This document shows positions 9,223 to 64,000 of a DNA stretch of 64,000 bases, in pieces; positions within the stretch are counted from its first letter, which is position 1, and every line of letters begins with the position of its first letter. The notes under the pieces were generated by a model that was not told the origin of the DNA, did not search any database, and worked only from the letters and a program-made list of their open reading frames with translations. The DNA is from Octopus vulgaris (Eukaryota): the NCBI GenBank assembly GCA_951406725.2, contig OX597837.1, positions 23,188,001 through 23,252,000 of the forward strand, in the 5' to 3' direction. A program made the translations under genes and the position numbers.

Positions 9223-11090
9223 GAAAACCAAGAGGTGAATGAAGATTTATTCACATCCAAAACTTTTTCATTAAAAAGTTTTCTACAGTACATATAACAA
9301 TGACCAACATGCTTCTACTGCAGTAACTGCACATTGCTCTGCATGCAATTATGCATCCTAGTTGCTGCAATTTCATCAAGGGTCCATCACTTACGACATT
9401 TTCAAAGTGAACTAATTCGAACAAGCTTCTTGTGTTCATATTCAGTTGAAGGTGATAGTGTTATGTTTTTTAAGCAAATTGAATTTTGGTCTTATAGTCA
9501 TCTCTACTGGTATTACTGTTGAATCATGGTTCTACAATGTTCATTTATATTACAGTTAATGGTAGCAGTTTTGTTTACATTTTACTGTTTGGAGTACATT
9601 ATTTATTCAGAGGTATTTCACTTATTTTGTGTTTATACCCTCAATGAATATTATTGTTATTATTATCATAATTATATTTACTAGTATTATTTACATAAAT
9701 ATCATTAATTATCACAATCATTATTTGAACTAGTTTAATTACTATAAATGGTAAGTTATGCTTATTTAAATCATTTAAATGTATATTTTGTCCAATGTGG
9801 ACATCTCATAGCCTGTTCCTGTCTAGTGCTTATAAAAGAAAATTTTGAATTGAAAATTGGATACATTTATTCCACACAAAAGTCACATCTATTATCACCT
9901 ATTCTATAAGGTTTTGCCTCACTAATTATTTCCCAAGCAATGGAAAATACTTCGTTATTATCTTTTAGTGTCCAAATTAGCTTACTAAGGCTGGTAGTAT
10001 TCATTTTGATTCTATTTCTAAATGAACTTAAATGATTGGCTACTCTTTGCTTAATATAACATGAGCTAGCTCCTGTATAGACATAATCTCTATTCTGAGG
10101 TAATTGTGCATTTGTATACAATATTTTTATGCCTACAATTATACTTAAGTGGACAGACCGTGTTCCTTGCATAATTGCATTTAATAGTTCTACTACTTTT
10201 ATTAATAGTATCCACTCCATGTTCTCTGGATGTATTTTCTATATTTTCCTGTCTATCTTCTAAGTTATTAGTCATTTGCACATAGACAACATTCTAAGTA
10301 CTGTGTTTTTTAGGATCTTCTACTTCCAGGCTAATGGGGAAGTTCACTCGGGTCTCTTCTATTTTATTGGTTGTTTATTCATGCTGATATTGTTGCTATT
10401 TATTGATCTATAATTATAATTCTGGTTACTATTATTGCTATTAGTCATATGGAAACTGTTAAATTTACTAGCATTCTGTGCTGCTATAATTTGTGTTAAA
10501 TGTTTGCTATAAAAAAAAAGTGAATCTAAACCTATGCTTATTAAAAATTCTGTAGTATTTACTGTTTTTGGAAAATGTTTAGTCAATGCCGAATAAAACA
10601 ATTTTTGTATATTGGAAATTATTGGTTTTTCGAAGGGAATTATATACTATTTGATATAACTAGAGGTACGTATGTTATCAAGGTATATATTTCTATTTCT
10701 ACCTTAAACTTTTTGTAAAAGTGTGTAACCTATTTATCTGGTTCTTATTACAGTATTGGGTTTGTTTGCTATTACTTTTGACGTTACATTTGTCAGTTAT
10801 TTGTATATTACTATTTACAGAGCTTATGTATTGATTACCTCCCCTATCTGAATGGGACCTCTTAGTAGGTCCATTCACAGCTGAACCACCTTGTACTTTA
10901 TTTGGCACAGATTCACGTAAAATTTTACTCTTTTTTTTATTTCTAGATACTCTATTGTTACAATCTAATTGCACAGACTTCCTATCTTTAACTCTTCCTA
11001 CTGCCTGTTCTTTTTGCTTAGTGATGCTCCTCATATTATGCATATTATTTTGATTATTGTCAGAATGGTCCATCCCATTACTTCAATTAT
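9220..11090 (-). mobile_element. Penelope-like element remnant (frameshifted Cys-linker plus GIY-YIG, 3' pLTR)
   Basis: KCNY..CPLKYNCRHKNIVYKC (ORF 10090-10281) continues by frameshift into YVYTGAS..IKQRVANHLSSF..TSLSKLIWTLK..IAWEII..RCDFCVE (ORF 9867-10220). Confidence 0.85.
9302..9384 (-). ncRNA. Degenerate type-I hammerhead in PLE pLTR
   Basis: Minus strand GACC|C-TTGATGA|stem II AATTGCAGCAACT..AGTTACTGCAGTA|GAAG|CATG|TT|GGTC; downstream of the GIY-YIG ORF on the same strand. Confidence 0.55.
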
Positions 11091-21904: not shown

Positions 21905-22440
21905 CGATGAGGGTCGGCTAAAAAGTTCACAGACTGACCAAAATACTTTTATGGAAAATGACCAAATGAGGTTTATCTTTCAGCATAGTCCCTCTTGCAG
22001 TTCACACACTTCTTCCATTGGTGTTGCACTTCTTGGACCCATTGGTGAAGAAGCTTTCGTCCTGTTGGTCAAAAAGAGTTCTCAGCAGCTGATATGATAT
22101 CATCATAATCACTGTGACACTGGTGGCCACCCAAACGTTTTTTTTTCATGTGGGGGAACAGATGATAGTGAGATGGGACCAAATCAAGAAGAATAGGGTG
22201 GGTGATCAACCACTTCAAACCCACAGTCACACACAGCAGCCATTGAAACCAAAGATTTGTGTTTTGTGTGCTGGAGCATTGTCCTGATGAAACAAGATGC
22301 TTTGTGCCAATTTTCATGGGCATTTGGTCTTGACAGCCTTTTGTAACTCCAAAGCAAGTTGACATAGTACTCTCCATTGATGATGTGGTCTTTTTGAAGA
22401 AAGTCAATAGACACAATACCCTTCATATTCCTTTTGCAGA
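21905..22440 (-). mobile_element. mariner (DD34D) 3' fragment
   Basis: IDFLQKDHIINGEYYVNLL...VDHPPYS..DLVPSHYHLF; mariner-like end CGATGAGGGTCGGCTAAAAAGTTC. Confidence 0.75.
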
Positions 22441-23559
22441 TGAAATGACTTTGAAAGAGGAAGAGAAGAGGCCTATATAAAATATGTAGCAGGTTGTGAT
22501 AATAGAGGAATTCCAACTACGTTTTGGGGTTTGCTACCTCAATAGATCCTTTATAGGATCCAGTGGCTAAAGGCCATGTCAAGAGGGACCATGTCCGGTT
22601 TCTGCCCCTACTCCTCTGCTGTTTTCGACCTGGTGGCCATACCCTTTTGGAGGTGTCTTCAGCTCTGGTGTCGAGTGCATTTCTTCTTTCTCGTTCTGTC
22701 TTCTGTTCCCTGGCCTCTTCGATGCAGCATCAATGAGTGCCAGCGGACGACTGACCATCCTGCCAAATTTCCCTTTAAATACTCGCTGGTAGGCTCCAGC
22801 AGCCAGCACCAACTAGTTATCATGTGACACTGTCTAAACTTCAACTGACCAATGGAGGGGAAAGGTGTGTGATCTTAGCTCGCACCCTCTCTGAACCTGC
22901 CTTCCAACAGTGTTGTGTTAGTTTCAGTTCCAGTAGCCAGAGCCAACCAGCTGTTTGGTGGTACAAGCCTGCGAACTAGGATAAAAGATAAAAGCTAACA
23001 ATATCACCAAACATCAGCAACAAAACAAACAGTAACCACGATAATATTATTTTGACATAATTGAGCAATTAGAAATAATGATAATTAAATAATAATAAAA
23101 GCCAAAATAAACAAAGTGGAACAATGAATAAGAGTGGTAATAATCCTTTCTGCTGTTGGCACAAAACCTGAAATTTGATGAGGAGTGGCTAAGTGGACTA
23201 CATTGACCCCAGTGTCTGACTGGTACTTATTTTATTGACTCCAAAAGGATGAAAGGCAAAATTGATCTCAGTGGGATTTGAACTCTTAATGTAAGGATGG
23301 ATGAAATGCCACTAAGCATTTCATCCAGTAAGCTAACAATTCTGCCAGCTTGCTGCTTTAAGAAAGATCCTTTCCGGTTCATATAGACTCCTAGGGCTGG
23401 TTTCTGTGGTGTATATATTCCCCCTGGATAGGATGCCCATCTGTTGCAGGATTACTAATTTTTGCCAGATGAGTGAACTGGAGTAATGTGAAAATGAAGT
23501 GTTTTGCTCATTTTTGCAGGTTTTCAGCTAAATCTTGTTGGAGATCTCCAAGGTTTGAA

Positions 23560-32200: not shown

Positions 32201-32689
32201 GCATCAACACCAAAACCAATACAAATACTACCAACATTACCAATTCAACAACTTTTTACTGACCACCGCTGCCACCACCAAGAATAATAATAGTATGAAC
32301 AATGTAAATGACTCCATCTCAAATATGAAAAAAAATAAATGCATGAGATAATGTGGTGCAACACCGATACCAGTATCAGCATAATAGCAATGTCTGTAGC
32401 AACATATGTTGCATGTCAACACAACAGTAGTGTGCGTGTGCAAGTGTGTAAACATACAGCACTGTACTTATAAAGTATTTCCTCCCAACTCATTCCTTTA
32501 CCTTCTCATTTTCTTATTTCCACTCTTACACCCACAGAAATAAGACCACTTTTGCTTTCACAAAGAAGTTCATTACTGGTGCTTTTCTTTTTACTCTATA
32601 TTTGTTGTGGATAGTTGTAGTTCACTGATGCTGGTGGAATTACCTACAATTCAAGATTTGAAGAAAGGAGGCATCAAGTGCAATTGAAG

Positions 32690-33820
32690 TAGTTGTATTA
32701 AAAGGAACCATAACAGGACACTATATATTAAACTTGACATTTTAAAAAGGCTTGATGTAAGAGAAAAAACCAGCCACATTGCCAAAACAATAAAACTTCC
32801 AATGACTTCAGTGAGAAAAATATACGACAATAGAAAGAAAATTAAGTCAAGTGCTCAGCGAGTCACTCCTTTTACTGTCCAGCTGTTATTTTTCCATCAG
32901 TATGTGAGGTTCAGTTTGGGACAGTTCTTGGGTACACGGGAGGTTAAAATATACGGTCAGACTGTATGCATGATTTCACAAATTTTTCACAAGCAGAAAG
33001 TCTACATCAAATTCAAAAAGATACTGCAATACTTGCAAATGATGTAGAGTTTGGAAGAAGTCATAGAGAATTATGAAGCTGAGATGTTTGTGACCTATAA
33101 AGGAAGTTTATCTAATGAAAAGATGATGCTGTAAGAACAAAAGCAAGCTGAAAATACAGATGTGAATATGGAAATTCAAACAACAACACAAGATGACTGC
33201 GAAGTATATTGCTGAAGGGTTGGCACTTAGAGAGAAAAGTCTATAAGATTTTGCTGATAACGATCCTAATCATGAACATAGCATAAACATTACAAAGGGA
33301 ATTTACAATGATCTTAGTTCCTGCACTGAGGTGTAAGAAGAGACAATGTGTCACAAAGATCAAACAATTTTGGATAAGTCATTCACCCCTCAAGTAGATA
33401 TTGACGATGCTGAACTATGTGATAGGAAATAGCGTACACATCCTCCTTGTAGCATTCATTCTATCACCACTCCTCAGAAAACAGTCATCTATTGTGGTAA
33501 AATTATAAGAATATATACTACTACAGTATCATAGCACTTATTTATTCCCCAACGAATTCTACTTCAAATATTTTCAAGTATAAATAGTGTACTGCGTATG
33601 TTTAGAAATTGTTATTTTCATGTATAAATGTGATCACGTTACCTATTTTTGTCTTTTTTTTTGTTTTTGGTCTTATTTCCCACCAAATAACCATTACAAA
33701 GCATTATCACTTTATAACAGGAAAATCAATGAGGAAAATTAATTTCGCATTATAGGATTTCAGGTTATGGTGGGTTTTTTGAGGACACACTACTCCCAAA
33801 ATGTGGCAGATTCTTGTATA
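32690..33820 (+). mobile_element. pogo/Tigger-like remnant
   Basis: IKLDILKRLD...HIAKTIKLPMTSVRKIYDNRKKIKSSA resembles the CENP-B-type N-terminal HTH; heavily decayed. Confidence 0.55.
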
Positions 33821-43489: not shown

Positions 43490-43974
43490 AATGACATGCA
43501 TAAGATCTGGTCATCAAATCTAAGTAGAGACTTCAAACTTGAAATATTCAAAGCCACAGTCGAACCAATTCTACTATATGGCTCAGAAACCTGGACGTTA
43601 TCAAAGAAGCTGGAGAGGCGGTTGGATGGAACCTACACTCGCCTCCTTATGAGAGCTCAAAATCTCTCGTGGAAGTGCCATCCAACCAAAATGCAAATAT
43701 ATGGGAAACTACCACCTGTGTCATCTCTTGTGAAAGGTAGGAGAGTCCAGTTTGCTGGACATTGTTGTAGAGCTGAAAAGAAGTAATTTCTACTCTTCTC
43801 CTCTGGAAGCCACCTACTCGCAATACCAGAGGGCGCACACTCTCCTACCCTGATGTAATCTCCAGGGATACAGGCATCCAGCAACAGGACCTCCGTAATG
43901 CCATGATGGACCGTGAAGTCTGGCGTAGCATGGTAAATTCCATTGTCTCGACCACGGTCAAACAATGATGATGA
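43490..43974 (+). mobile_element. RTE LINE (second family) 3' fragment
   Basis: KIWSSNLSRDFKLEIFKATVEPILLYGSETWTL..RLDGTYTRLL..RRVQFAGHC; ends in (TGA)n. Confidence 0.85.
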
Positions 43975-44015
43975 CCACTGTATAGTGTGTTCGAACAGAA
44001 CATCCATATTTATAA

Positions 44016-44615
44016 GGCAGCTAGCTGGTAGAAACGTTAGCACATCACCATCATCATCATTGTTCAACCGTGGTCGAGACAATGGAATTTACCATGCCAC
44101 GTCAGACTTCATGGTCCATCATAGCATTACGGAGGTCCTATTGCTGGATGCCTGTATCCCTGGAGATTACATCAGGGTAGGAGAGTGTGCACCCTCTGGT
44201 ATTGCGAGTAGATGGCTTCCAGAGGAGAAGAGTAGAAATTGCCTCGTTTTCAGCTCTACAACAATGTCCAGCAAACTGGACTCTCCTACCTTTCACAAGA
44301 GATGACACAGGTGGTAGTTTCCCATATATTTGCATTTTGGTTGGAACACACTTCCACGAGAGATTTTGAGCTCTCATAAGGAGTGTAGGTTCCATCCAAC
44401 CACCTCTCAAGCTTCTTTGATAATGTCCAAGTTTCTGAAATGCTTAGTGGTATTTCGTCTGTTTTTATGTTCTGAGTTCAAATTCTGCCGAGGTCGACTT
44501 TGTCTCTCACCCTTTCAAGGTAGATAAATTAAGTACTAGTGATGTACTGGGGTCGATCTAATCGACAGGCCCTCTCTCCAAAACTTTCGGGCCTTGTGCC
44601 TAGAGTAGAAAAGAA
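44016..44615 (+). mobile_element. SINE family B split by an RTE insertion
   Basis: Head 44016-44043 resumes at ~44437 GAAATGCTTAG. Confidence 0.75.
44044..44438 (-). mobile_element. Inverted copy of the same RTE 3' fragment
   Basis: Reverse complement of 43583-43974 with scattered substitutions and a small deletion. Confidence 0.85.
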
Positions 44616-55749: not shown

Positions 55750-57270
55750 ATACTGCAGTAACAGCAGCAGTGACGCCAACTGCATTATTAACAATACAAG
55801 CAGCAGCAGTCACAACAGCTGCACTCCAAACAGTATGACAGCAGCAGCAGCAGCAGCAGCATTTGTGACAACAATTGCAGTACAAAGAACATAAAGGCAC
55901 AAGAGCAGTGGTGATGATTGCCTTATTAGTAACACAAGCAGCAGCTGTCACAACATCTGCACTATAAACTGCACAACAACAGCAGTGGTCACAACTACTG
56001 CAGTATCAGTTGCAGAATTGAAGAATTTGTGACAGCAAATGCAGTTTGAAGAATGTAACAGAACAACATCAGCAGTGACAGCAACTGCATTATTAACAAC
56101 AGCGGCACTCTAAACAGTACGACAACAACAACAGTAGCAGCAGCATTTGTGACAACAACTGCAGTATCAGTTACAGAATTGAAGAATTTGTGACAGCAAA
56201 TGCAGTTTGGAGAATATAACAGAACAACATCAGCAGTGACAGCAACTGCATTATTAACAACAGCGGCACTCTAAACAGTACGACAACAACAACAGTAGCA
56301 GCAGCATTTGTGACAACAACTGCAGTATCAGTTACAGAATTGAAGAATTTGTGACAGCAAATGCAGTTTGGAGAATATAACAGAACAACATCAGCAGTGA
56401 CAGCAACTGCATTATTAACAATACAAGCAGCAGCAGTCACAACAGCAGCAGCAGCTTTCAAGAATTTGGACCTGGAGATCTCCATTTCCAGTGACTTCGA
56501 GGGCCACCTCCCAGTGGTGTCGGACATCAACAAAGAACCCTCGACTACAACAAGACAACCAAAGTTTTCTTTTTTTTCTCAAGGTCTGGGGTCTCTTACC
56601 CCTAAGCCCTAGACCATCACCTAATCACTCTTACCTGTCTTGTTGCTTAGCAACAACAACAACACCAGCAGCATTTGTGACAACAACTGCAGTACAAAGA
56701 ACATAACGGCACAAGAGCAGCAGTGGTGATTGTCTTATTAGTAACACAAGCAGCAGCTCTCACAACATCTGTGCTATAAACTGCACAACAGCAGCAGTGG
56801 TCACCACTACTGCAGTATCAGTAGCAGAATTGAAGAATTTGTGACAACAAATGCAGTTCGAAGAATATAACAGCACAACACCAGCTGTGACAGCAACTGC
56901 ATTATTTGTAACACAAGCGGCAACAGTCACAACAAGTGCAGCATGAAGAATATAACAGCCAAACAGCAACAGCGACAACTGCAACATCAGCAACACAAGC
57001 AGCAGCAGTCACAACATCTGCAGCAGGTGCATTTGTGACAGCAACTGTAACAGGATGAATATAACAACACAACAGCAGTATCAAACAATGCATTATTAGG
57101 AACACAAGCAGCAGCAGTCAGAACAATTGCACAATGGTAGCGACAGTTACAACCATTGCAATATAAGCTGCACAACAGCAGCATTTGTGACAACAGCTAC
57201 AGTATGAAGAATATAATGTCACAACAGCAGCAGTGGTGACTGCATTATTAACAACATCAGCATCAGCTGC
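55750..57270. repeat. Complex GCA/ACA-rich tandem array with 161-bp period and an ~812-bp duplication
   Basis: CAGTATCAGT at 56001, 56162, 56323 and 56813. Confidence 0.85.
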
Positions 57271-62417: not shown

Positions 62418-62756
62418 TTTATCTCTTTTCCAAACACAGTTTCATCCTTCCACATGGCATATCATATTACATCACACACACTCACTATTGCTCCACCTGC
62501 TAAAAATAACAGCCAAATGTCCTTCATCTCATACCCCAATGTTTCAAGAAATGACACACTGGTACACATGTCATACTTTTCCTGCATATTGAGATAAGAC
62601 AGGTTGGCCACAGCCGGAATGCCTTTGATAAGACAGCAGTCTGCTTGAGGTTAAACAGCCACTGCTACGTTAAGGGTAATGTGTCTACGGAGCACTCAGC
62701 CACTTGCACATTAATTTGCCAAGCAGGTTGTTCTGTTGATCGGATCAACTGGAACC

Positions 62757-62933
62757 ACGAGGCAGGCGTCGTCGGGCGTCGCCGTTCGTGTTGTAGTGCG
62801 TTCACCTCCTGGTCATTTTGGCCCACATGGTTCCTCCGAGGGTGCTCTTCGCCGAGTGTCCGAGGCGGCCGGTACATTCACTGTGAAAAAATTAGAGTGT
62901 TCAGAGCAAGCCCCACCGGTTTGCATACGAAAA
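62757..62933 (+). pseudogene. 18S rRNA V4-region fragment (retroposed piece)
   Basis: GGTGCTCTT..GAGTGTC..GGCCGG.AC.TT.ACT.TGAAAAAATTAGAGTGTTCA.AGCA.GCC matches the conserved eukaryotic 18S segment after V4; CpG-rich compared with flanks. Confidence 0.8.
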
Positions 62934-62989
62934 GTCGTCATAACCGATGGAGTGCCACGATATACATATATATATATGTGTGTGTGTGT

Positions 62990-63140
62990 GTCCCCGTTAC
63001 TTAGCGGTTCGGCAAAAGAGACCGATAGAATAAGTACTGGGCTTACAAAAGAATAAGTGCCGGGGTCGAGTTGCTCGATTAAAGGCGGTGCTCCAGCATG
63101 GCCGCAGTCAAATGACTGAAACAAGTAAGAAAAGAGTAAA
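62990..63140 (+). mobile_element. SINE family A 3' half
   Basis: TCCCCGTTACTTAGCGG...GAAACAAGTAAG. Confidence 0.85.
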
Positions 63141-63144
63141 GGAG

Positions 63145-63186
<42 letters not shown>

Positions 63187-63196
63187 CATCAAATTC

Positions 63197-63650
63197 ATTA
63201 TCGTTTAACGTCTGCTTTCCATGCTGGCATGGGTTGGATGGTTTGACTGAGGACTGGTGAACCAGATGGCTGCACCAGGTTCCAATCTTATCTGACAAAG
63301 TTTCTACAGCTGGATGTGTAGTGGGTGCTTTTACATTCCACCGACAGGAGGGCCAGTCAGGTGGTACTGGTGACAGTCACGCTCAAATGGTGATTTTTAA
63401 GTGCCTCCTGCACAGGAGCCAGTCCAATGGCATTGGCAATGACCTTGCTTGAATGTTGTTTTTCATGTGCCAGCAAGGCGACACTGGGAACAATCATGCT
63501 CAAATGGTGCTTTTTATGTGCCACCAGCACAGGAGCCAGTCAGCGGCCCTAGCAATGATCACGCTTGGACAGTGCTTTTAACGTTCCACTGGCATGGCTG
63601 CCAGTCAGGCAGTGCTATCATTGGCCACATCAGTGAATTTGATTTTGATT
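63197..63650 (-). mobile_element. RTE 3' UTR (family C)
   Basis: Reverse complement of the 44705-45076 family. Confidence 0.75.
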
Positions 63651-64000
63651 GTGATCATATGGTACATACCTGGTAGTTTGCTGGTAAAGCATGTTCACTG
63701 GCTCAGTGTTCGTTAGGTATTTGGTGAGCCTGAAGCATAGTTTTTGGTTCAGCCCCATTGCATCACATATTGGGCAAGTATCTTTTGTTGTAGCCTCAGG
63801 CTGACAAAAGCCTTGTGTGTGGAATTAGTAGATAGGAACTGAAAGAAGCCAGCCATATATATATGTATATATGTATATGACATGTGACATGTGACCGACC
63901 AGGCTATCAGGTGTTGCTACACATCGCTGGTCACAATGCACTTCACATTGTTTTGGCCATCAAGTGATGCCACCAAGCTGGCTAAGTGAGCAGGCCAACA

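What the first reader, a model, noticed from the sequence alone, without database searches (positions are those of the whole stretch)
62590..62960. 18S rRNA V4 fragment embedded in a probable SINE tail
Seen: a CpG-rich ~180-bp insert (62757-62933) containing the universal 18S string GAAAAAATTAGAGTGTTC and the preceding GGTGCTCTT..GAGTGTC helix. The flanks (...GATCGGATCAACTGGAACC | GTCGTCATAACCGATGGAGTGCCA) look, from recall only, like contiguous parts of an octopus SINE 3' end. Inference: either a double template switch onto rRNA during reverse transcription or RNA-templated break repair. If multicopy, it would be a SINE subfamily with an internal 18S domain. rRNA-derived SINEs are known, but mostly with the rRNA as head.
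Basis: partly seen in the sequence, partly recalled or inferred. Interest (0 to 1): 0.7.

Follow-up and report, generated by a model that had tools for sequence, protein, structure and literature searches.

The report
Ribosomal RNA scrap patched into repeat
A 177-base piece of the animal's own 18S ribosomal RNA gene sits cleanly inside a short, cut-off copy of an octopus jumping-gene repeat; it is most likely a one-off repair patch in a broken chromosome, an ordinary kind of accident unless the same two joints turn out to be repeated across the genome.

Summary
Both halves of the observation hold. All 177 nt at 62757-62933 are 18S V4: a database peptide that is a spurious translation of a GC-rich, long-V4 18S (P0001) fits 127 of 139 codon-constrained positions; Rfam gives only a weak SSU hit (E=0.008). 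The flanks are contiguous in uninterrupted copies of an octopus repeat: 2 of 3 repeat-derived peptides, one from O. bimaculoides, read straight across the insertion point. The repeat starts at 62665, not 62590. Anatomy: 92 nt repeat, 177 nt 18S, 24 nt repeat; 3 repeat bases lost, no target-site duplication, no tail, 0-2 nt microhomology. CpG decay (6 of 7 mismatches) shows an old genomic copy, not contamination. Best reading (0.65): an 18S fragment captured by end-joining at a break in an existing repeat copy, like class 2 templated insertions. A double template switch during retroposition (0.2) is not excluded, since flank and insert show similar CpG decay. No copy with both junctions was found, but no octopus genome could be searched; a subfamily gets 0.08. 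The label 'SINE' is unverified.

The parts
62665..62756 (+). Left part (92 nt) of a 5'-truncated copy of an octopus interspersed repeat 3' region (SINE or LINE tail; family not identified)
   Evidence: Matches a repeat-derived peptide in 3 unrelated gene models, E 5e-8 to 1e-2; 67 of 72 constrained positions fit P0010 with a 1-nt gap; alignment starts at 62665
62757..62933 (+). 177-nt internal fragment of 18S rRNA, V4 region, sense strand, CpG-decayed
   Evidence: 127 of 139 constrained positions fit P0001; 92 of 103 fit P0003 over 62755-62890; 6 of 7 mismatches in the ungapped 135-nt block are CpG transitions
62863..62935 (+). Part of the insert that Rfam RF01960 (positions 737-809) recognises
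   Evidence: E=0.008, 16.7 bits, below gathering score, only with the 179-nt stretch given alone
62755..62756 (+). 5' junction: last 2 repeat bases, possible microhomology of 0-2 nt with 18S
   Evidence: 62755 fits both P0001 and P0003; 62756 is a free third codon position in both; 62754 fits neither
62934..62957 (+). Right part (24 nt) of the same repeat, its 3' end; first base shared with 18S (1-nt microhomology); 3 repeat bases missing between the two parts
   Evidence: 15 of 18 constrained positions fit P0009 residues 105-113; residue count across the site in P0009 and P0011; positional chance about 7e-4
62960..62991 (.). (TA)n/(TG)n microsatellite after the repeat end; no poly(A), no target-site duplication of 5 nt or more around 62665-62957
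   Evidence: Sequence; duplication search

Best explanation
A one-off secondary insertion. Step 1 (inferred): a 5'-truncated copy of an octopus retroposon-type repeat inserted here. Step 2 (inferred): a double-strand break, or a nick without target duplication, fell 24 nt from its 3' end in the germ line. Step 3 (anatomy shown, mechanism inferred): a 177-nt piece of the host's 18S, as cDNA of rRNA or as an rDNA fragment, was joined into the gap by end-joining, with 3 repeat bases lost and 0-2 nt of microhomology. Step 4 (shown): the patch then decayed at CpG sites like methylated genomic DNA. It has no function and no means of spreading, since this copy lacks the repeat's 5' part.
For: Empty-site contiguity with exactly 3 nt missing. 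No duplication around insert or element, no tail on the insert. These are the class 2 features listed in PMC5110952 (no TSD, no poly(A), microdeletion, microhomology; experimental inserts 73-414 bp, median 191; passages). End-joining captures show 0-4 nt microhomology in yeast (PMC11724301, passages). rRNA fragments nested in other elements are known (4 of 27 SINE28 loci, PMC4994717, passages). About 35% of this window is interspersed repeat, so landing in a repeat is unremarkable. A second decayed copy of the same 18S stretch (P0003) has neither repeat flank, so loose 18S fragments exist independently of this repeat. Host origin: GC-rich, expanded V4 fits coleoid 18S (mean 60.3% GC, 2275 bp; PMC2841657 Table 1).
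Against: Insert and repeat are in the same orientation (required by template switching, 50% under patching). CpG decay is the same in flanks (3 of 8 visible sites) and insert (6 of 15; p=1.0), so the insert is not shown to be younger. The host copy is a small target (116 nt; only copy of its family in the window). Non-CpG mismatches are higher in the flanks (6 of 89 versus 1 of 107, p=0.048), which would fit a younger insert, but the references are single copies or other species and one of the 6 lies outside the homology, so I give it little weight. All comparisons are to peptides, so third codon positions are blind. The taxon of P0001 and P0003 is unknown.
Confidence: 0.65

Rival explanations
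1. Double template switch during one LINE-driven retroposition: reverse transcriptase copied 24 nt of the repeat's 3' end, jumped to abundant 18S rRNA for 177 nt, returned to the repeat RNA 3 nt upstream, copied 92 nt more and stopped. Single locus.
For: Same orientation; first switch close to the 3' end; similar CpG decay. Tripartite chimeras from double switches are documented, without microhomology (PMC2104539, abstract and passages).
Against: The tripartite cases named in the passages I read join three different RNAs (WEIRD, Mg-SINE, MGL; B2, U6, L1) and are flanked by 14-16 bp repeats; none returns in register to the first template. No duplication flanks this element.
Confidence: 0.2
2. 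The 18S piece entered a source copy of the repeat and was amplified: this locus is a 5'-truncated member of a subfamily with an internal 18S V4 module.
For: Not excluded: no octopus genome could be searched. Similar CpG decay of both parts fits co-insertion. A multicopy element is more likely to be met in a random window (inference).
Against: No second copy in 64 kb. Two reading frames are open across both junctions, yet no hit joins flank and insert: 1 hit of 4 candidates, insert only; 7 hits, none with a flank among the 6 I read; 3 hits of 5 candidates, flank only; 0 of 2. These searches are shallow for octopus repeats, so this is weak evidence.
Confidence: 0.08
3. The 18S is foreign (parasite or prey) or the locus is an assembly chimera with live rDNA.
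For: The closest 18S (P0001) is unnamed and differs from the insert by indels at 62765-62795; reads were not available.
Against: 6 of 7 mismatches in the ungapped block are CpG transitions (p about 7e-4), which live rDNA or a fresh contaminant would not show. A chimera would not restore the repeat in register. The V4 is GC-rich and expanded as in coleoids. P0003 shares the insert's indel state where P0001 differs.
Confidence: 0.07

Closest known systems
Class 2 templated sequence insertions (TSI/TSIP; Onozawa and Aplan, PMC5110952)
   Same: Short patch copied from a distant locus, no target duplication, no poly(A), microdeletion and short microhomology; 177 nt lies in the 73-414 bp range reported for experimental breaks.
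   Different: Described in human cells and populations; the word 'ribosomal' does not occur in that review. This locus is old and decayed, and polymorphism is untested.
SINE28 (Longo et al. 2015, PMC4994717)
   Same: rRNA-derived interspersed piece; some loci are nested in another element.
   Different: SINE28 is the 3' end of 28S with its own A-rich tail, TSDs, 27 human loci and Pol III transcripts. Here it is an internal 18S V4 piece with no tail, no TSD and one known locus.
Tripartite chimeric retrogenes from double template switches (Gogvadze et al. 2007, PMC2104539)
   Same: Three co-oriented segments, a retroposon 3' end at the 3' side, an abundant non-coding RNA inside.
   Different: Known cases join three different RNAs and carry 14-16 bp flanking repeats; here the outer parts are contiguous halves of one repeat and no flanking repeat was found.
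5S rRNA-derived SINE3/Cassandra and other rDNA-bearing elements (review PMC10946416, section 11)
   Same: rDNA-derived module inside a transposable element.
   Different: Those use the 5S Pol III promoter, or 28S or IGS pieces, and are multicopy; Table 2 there lists no 18S-derived element.
Dispersed rRNA pseudogene fragments (own knowledge)
   Same: Decayed internal piece of 18S outside the rDNA array; P0003 is another such piece.
   Different: Only its clean nesting in a repeat copy is notable.

Membership tests
18S rRNA (SSU) fragment | Homology to SSU rRNA beyond the universal motif | tested here: met
   Rfam 737-809 at E=0.008; 127 of 139 constrained positions to P0001 over the whole insert
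18S rRNA (SSU) fragment | Host (octopod) origin | tested here: inconclusive
   GC-rich expanded V4 fits coleoid 18S; P0001 and P0003 carry no taxon name; no SILVA or host rDNA available
Class 2 templated insertion | No target-site duplication | tested here: met
   the empty site shows loss, not duplication
Class 2 templated insertion | No poly(A) tract on the insert | tested here: met
   The 4 A at the 3' end are templated 18S
Class 2 templated insertion | Microdeletion at the site | tested here: met
   3 nt missing relative to P0009 and P0011, assuming the host subfamily has the same length there
Class 2 templated insertion | Microhomology or untemplated bases at junctions | tested here: inconclusive
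   1 nt at the 3' junction; 0-2 nt at the 5' junction, third codon positions blind
Class 2 templated insertion | Empty allele at the same locus | not testable with these tools
   Needs orthologous loci or population data
SINE28-like rRNA-derived SINE | rRNA-derived head with its own simple-repeat tail and TSD | tested here: not met
   Internal fragment, repeat sequence on both sides, no TSD
SINE28-like rRNA-derived SINE | Multiple loci and Pol III transcripts | not testable with these tools
   No octopus genome or transcript DNA search; none in the window
SINE (SINEBase definition) for the flanking repeat | Interspersed, non-tandem repeat | tested here: met
   Same peptide in 3 unrelated gene models; 45 of 48 residues shared by P0009 and P0010
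SINE (SINEBase definition) for the flanking repeat | tRNA, 5S or 7SL-like head | not testable with these tools
   This copy is 5'-truncated; no tRNA gene in the window; no consensus found
SINE (SINEBase definition) for the flanking repeat | At least 100 copies, under 1 kb | not testable with these tools
   One copy in 64 kb; definition from PMC3531059 passages
Tripartite template-switch chimera | All segments co-oriented | tested here: met
   All on the + strand
Tripartite template-switch chimera | Direct repeats enclosing the whole element | tested here: not met
   None of 5 nt or more; decay, the adjoining microsatellite or a TSD-poor LINE partner could hide one

The most novel reading that the evidence does not exclude
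An octopus retroposon subfamily that captured the 18S V4 expansion as an internal module next to its LINE-recognised 3' end and amplified with it: the first 18S-bearing SINE-type element, whose transcripts could base-pair like or with rRNA, and a dated record of a return-in-register double template switch.
Probability: 0.08. Interest if true: 0.72.

Novelty: new member of a known kind. Interest (0 to 1): 0.3.

Why it matters
As a single locus it is a tidy fossil of germ-line break repair (or reverse-transcriptase switching) in a cephalopod, a possible presence/absence marker for octopus phylogeny, and a caution: such fragments hold universal 18S motifs and can mislead rRNA annotation or read classification, and both rRNA and this repeat already appear as spurious proteins in databases. 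It would matter much more if the junctions are multicopy, because the review table I read lists 5S-, 28S- and IGS-derived elements but no 18S-derived one.

Tried and rejected
Rfam at gathering score and with flanks included: no SSU hit. Copies of flanks or insert elsewhere in the window: none. Bacterial and archaeal genomes: 287 pattern matches, 0 confirmed; 1 motif match, L001, about 0.2 expected by chance, no Rfam family, rejected as chance. Cluster look-up for names of the unnamed 18S-like proteins could not be made, so their taxa stay open. Third protein search for both junctions in the second frame: 0 of 2 candidates. The two open frames across the element are not genes: no Pfam match; they are open because the net gain is 174 nt. 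Folding: the insert is no more stable than shuffles (z -0.59), nor the whole element (z -0.82), so no preserved structure is shown. A 5-nt direct repeat at 62755 and 62955 was considered as a TSD and rejected: both copies are largely explained by 18S and repeat homology. The idea that P0003 continues further 5' in 18S was not supported (32 of 200 shuffles as good). CpG clock could not order the events. Literature: no paper prints the flank motifs; no paper held all terms; one search listed 25 of 29 papers, none by title on an 18S-derived SINE (listing only). No octopus SINE consensus was found: part 1 of 4 of one supplement was read, SINEBase supplements could not be read; unseen supplements and Repbase/Dfam entries may name this repeat.

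Full report
Setting. The window is 37% GC, microsatellite-rich and depleted of CpG (o/e 0.36). About 35% is covered by interspersed self-matches. It is most likely an Octopus genome: the flank of the finding matches a UniRef protein of O. bimaculoides, and another stretch of that protein matches a repeat found at many places in the window. The species was not determined.

The insert is 18S. The quoted strings are present, and the insert has the highest CpG count of the sampled windows. Rfam alone is weak: no hit at gathering score or with flanks, and E=0.008 for model positions 737-809 when the 179 nt stand alone. The stronger evidence came from translating the region. One of 4 candidates, P0001, matched the insert only (44 of 68 residues). 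P0001 is a spurious translation of an 18S: it opens and closes with the conserved motifs that bracket V4 (labels recalled) and spans 537 nt between them, about twice the usual distance (usual distance from own knowledge). A frameshift-aware alignment of the DNA to its codon sets fits 127 of 139 constrained positions from 62749 to 62934, score 134 against at most 23 in 40 shuffles. A profile-free search of 1.84 billion proteins gave 7 hits. Five are other GC-rich 18S translations; four of them align only from 62831 on and one loosely from 62762. One, P0003, is a decayed copy that fits 92 of 103 positions over 62755-62890 and shares the insert's indel state where P0001 differs. The seventh (25% identity) was not examined. 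Coleoid 18S is GC-rich and long (60.3% GC, 2275 bp; PMC2841657, passages with Table 1), so host origin is likely, but the hits carry no taxon names. In the ungapped 135-nt block, 6 of 7 mismatches to P0001 are CpG to TpG/CpA changes (p about 7e-4). The piece has therefore aged in methylated genomic DNA; it is not live rDNA or fresh contamination.

The flanks are two halves of one repeat. The translated left flank hit 3 of 5 candidates: a nonsense model from O. bimaculoides (P0009), a chitin synthase model (P0010) and a chondroitin GalNAc-transferase model (P0011). All hold the same foreign peptide; P0009 and P0010 share 45 of 48 residues. That marks an interspersed repeat wrongly taken into gene models. 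In P0009 and P0011 the peptide runs on for nine residues past the point where the window switches to 18S and then enters a simple repeat, as retroposon 3' ends do; P0010 leaves it two residues after that point. The window's right flank fits those nine residues minus the first three bases (15 of 18 constrained positions). Taken alone this 24-nt match is weak (8 of 127,952 sites as good), but it starts at the base where 18S homology stops (about 7e-4). Homology on the left begins at 62665, so 62590-62664 is not part of the element. The copy is 5'-truncated, because P0009 and P0010 extend further upstream.

Anatomy. Repeat 62665-62756 (92 nt), 18S 62757-62933 (177 nt, sense), repeat 62934-62957 (24 nt), then a TA/TG microsatellite. 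Three repeat bases are missing. There is no duplication around the insert or the element, and the insert has no tail. The G at 62934 fits both partners; 62755-62756 may fit both. P0001 also fits 4 of 5 constrained positions at 62749-62755, a possible imperfect homology that P0003 only partly supports.

Mechanism. These junctions are those described for class 2 templated insertions: no TSD, no poly(A), microdeletion, microhomology, 73-414 bp in experimental breaks (PMC5110952, passages and section 5). Short microhomology is typical of end-joining captures (PMC11724301, passages). I put 0.65 on a secondary patch into an existing repeat copy. Whether the donor was rRNA-derived cDNA or an rDNA fragment is open. 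Against this reading: same orientation, a small target, and equal CpG decay in flank (3 of 8) and insert (6 of 15). These keep the double template switch alive at 0.2. Double switches are documented (PMC2104539, abstract and passages), but the cases named there join three different RNAs and carry flanking repeats.

Copy number. No copy of either junction was seen in the window or among protein hits, though two frames are open across both junctions. The protein sets hold few octopus repeat peptides (only 3 empty-site hits), so this is weak. I give a subfamily 0.08.

Comparison with what is known. SINE28 has a 28S head, tail, TSDs and 27 human loci, 4 of them nested in other elements (PMC4994717, abstract and passages); the present piece fails the head, tail and TSD tests. 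The review PMC10946416 (passages and section 11) lists 5S-, 28S- and IGS-derived elements, no 18S-derived one. Searches gave no paper that by title or listing describes an 18S-bearing SINE; the library lacks most subscription papers. Also seen: PMC3531059, PMC4758252, PMC6962438 and PMC12953835 as passages; PMC4824008 supplement part 1 of 4; supplement lists only for PMC2841657 and PMC8074623.

Verdict. A real and well-resolved chimera: a decayed host-type 18S V4 fragment set almost in register into a truncated octopus repeat. Most likely a single accident of a known kind; interest 0.3. One junction search in the host genome would settle whether it is more.

Noticed in passing
window 62656-62673 and 62697-62714: 18-nt imperfect direct repeat (78%) whose first copy straddles the 5' truncation point of the repeat at 62665; could be a short templated duplication at the 5' junction or chance.
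   Followed up: no
window 62593-62602 and 62627-62636: Exact 10-nt direct repeat 34 nt apart in the unassigned stretch upstream of the element.
   Followed up: no
window 62751-62762 and 62823-62834: 12-nt inverted repeat (83%): the 5' junction, including the repeat's last 6 bases, is complementary to a site inside the 18S piece; might have helped annealing, might be chance.
   Followed up: no
window 62980-63185, 63186-63519, 63736-63886: Three abundant repeat families directly downstream; the first has 11 other copies in the window. Likely the common octopus SINEs (recalled label).
   Followed up: no
window 22187-22516 (-) and 32688-33044 (+): Decayed DNA transposon pieces: weak Transposase_1 match (E=0.0013, below cut-off) and CENP-B_N match (E=7e-5).
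   Followed up: partly
window 9867-10238 (-): 123-codon open frame that looks like the GIY-YIG endonuclease end of a Penelope-like element (recalled resemblance); Pfam gave only a sub-threshold PRD match.
   Followed up: partly
window 55980-56421, 56844-57025 and 43657-44305: Long-period tandem repeats (161 and 82 nt) and an apparently duplicated segment seen as two similar open frames.
   Followed up: no
P0009, P0010, P0011: Public gene models that contain peptides translated from this repeat, including a chitin synthase and a chondroitin GalNAc-transferase model: annotation artefacts or true exonisation.
   Followed up: partly
P0001-P0006, P0008: Protein collections hold spurious translations of GC-rich 18S rRNA and of at least one decayed 18S copy (P0003), whose match starts at the same place as the window's 5' junction; its upstream part could not be assigned.
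   Followed up: partly
L001 598-633 (-): Motif match in a Treponema genome bin; no rRNA by Rfam, consistent with chance.
   Followed up: yes
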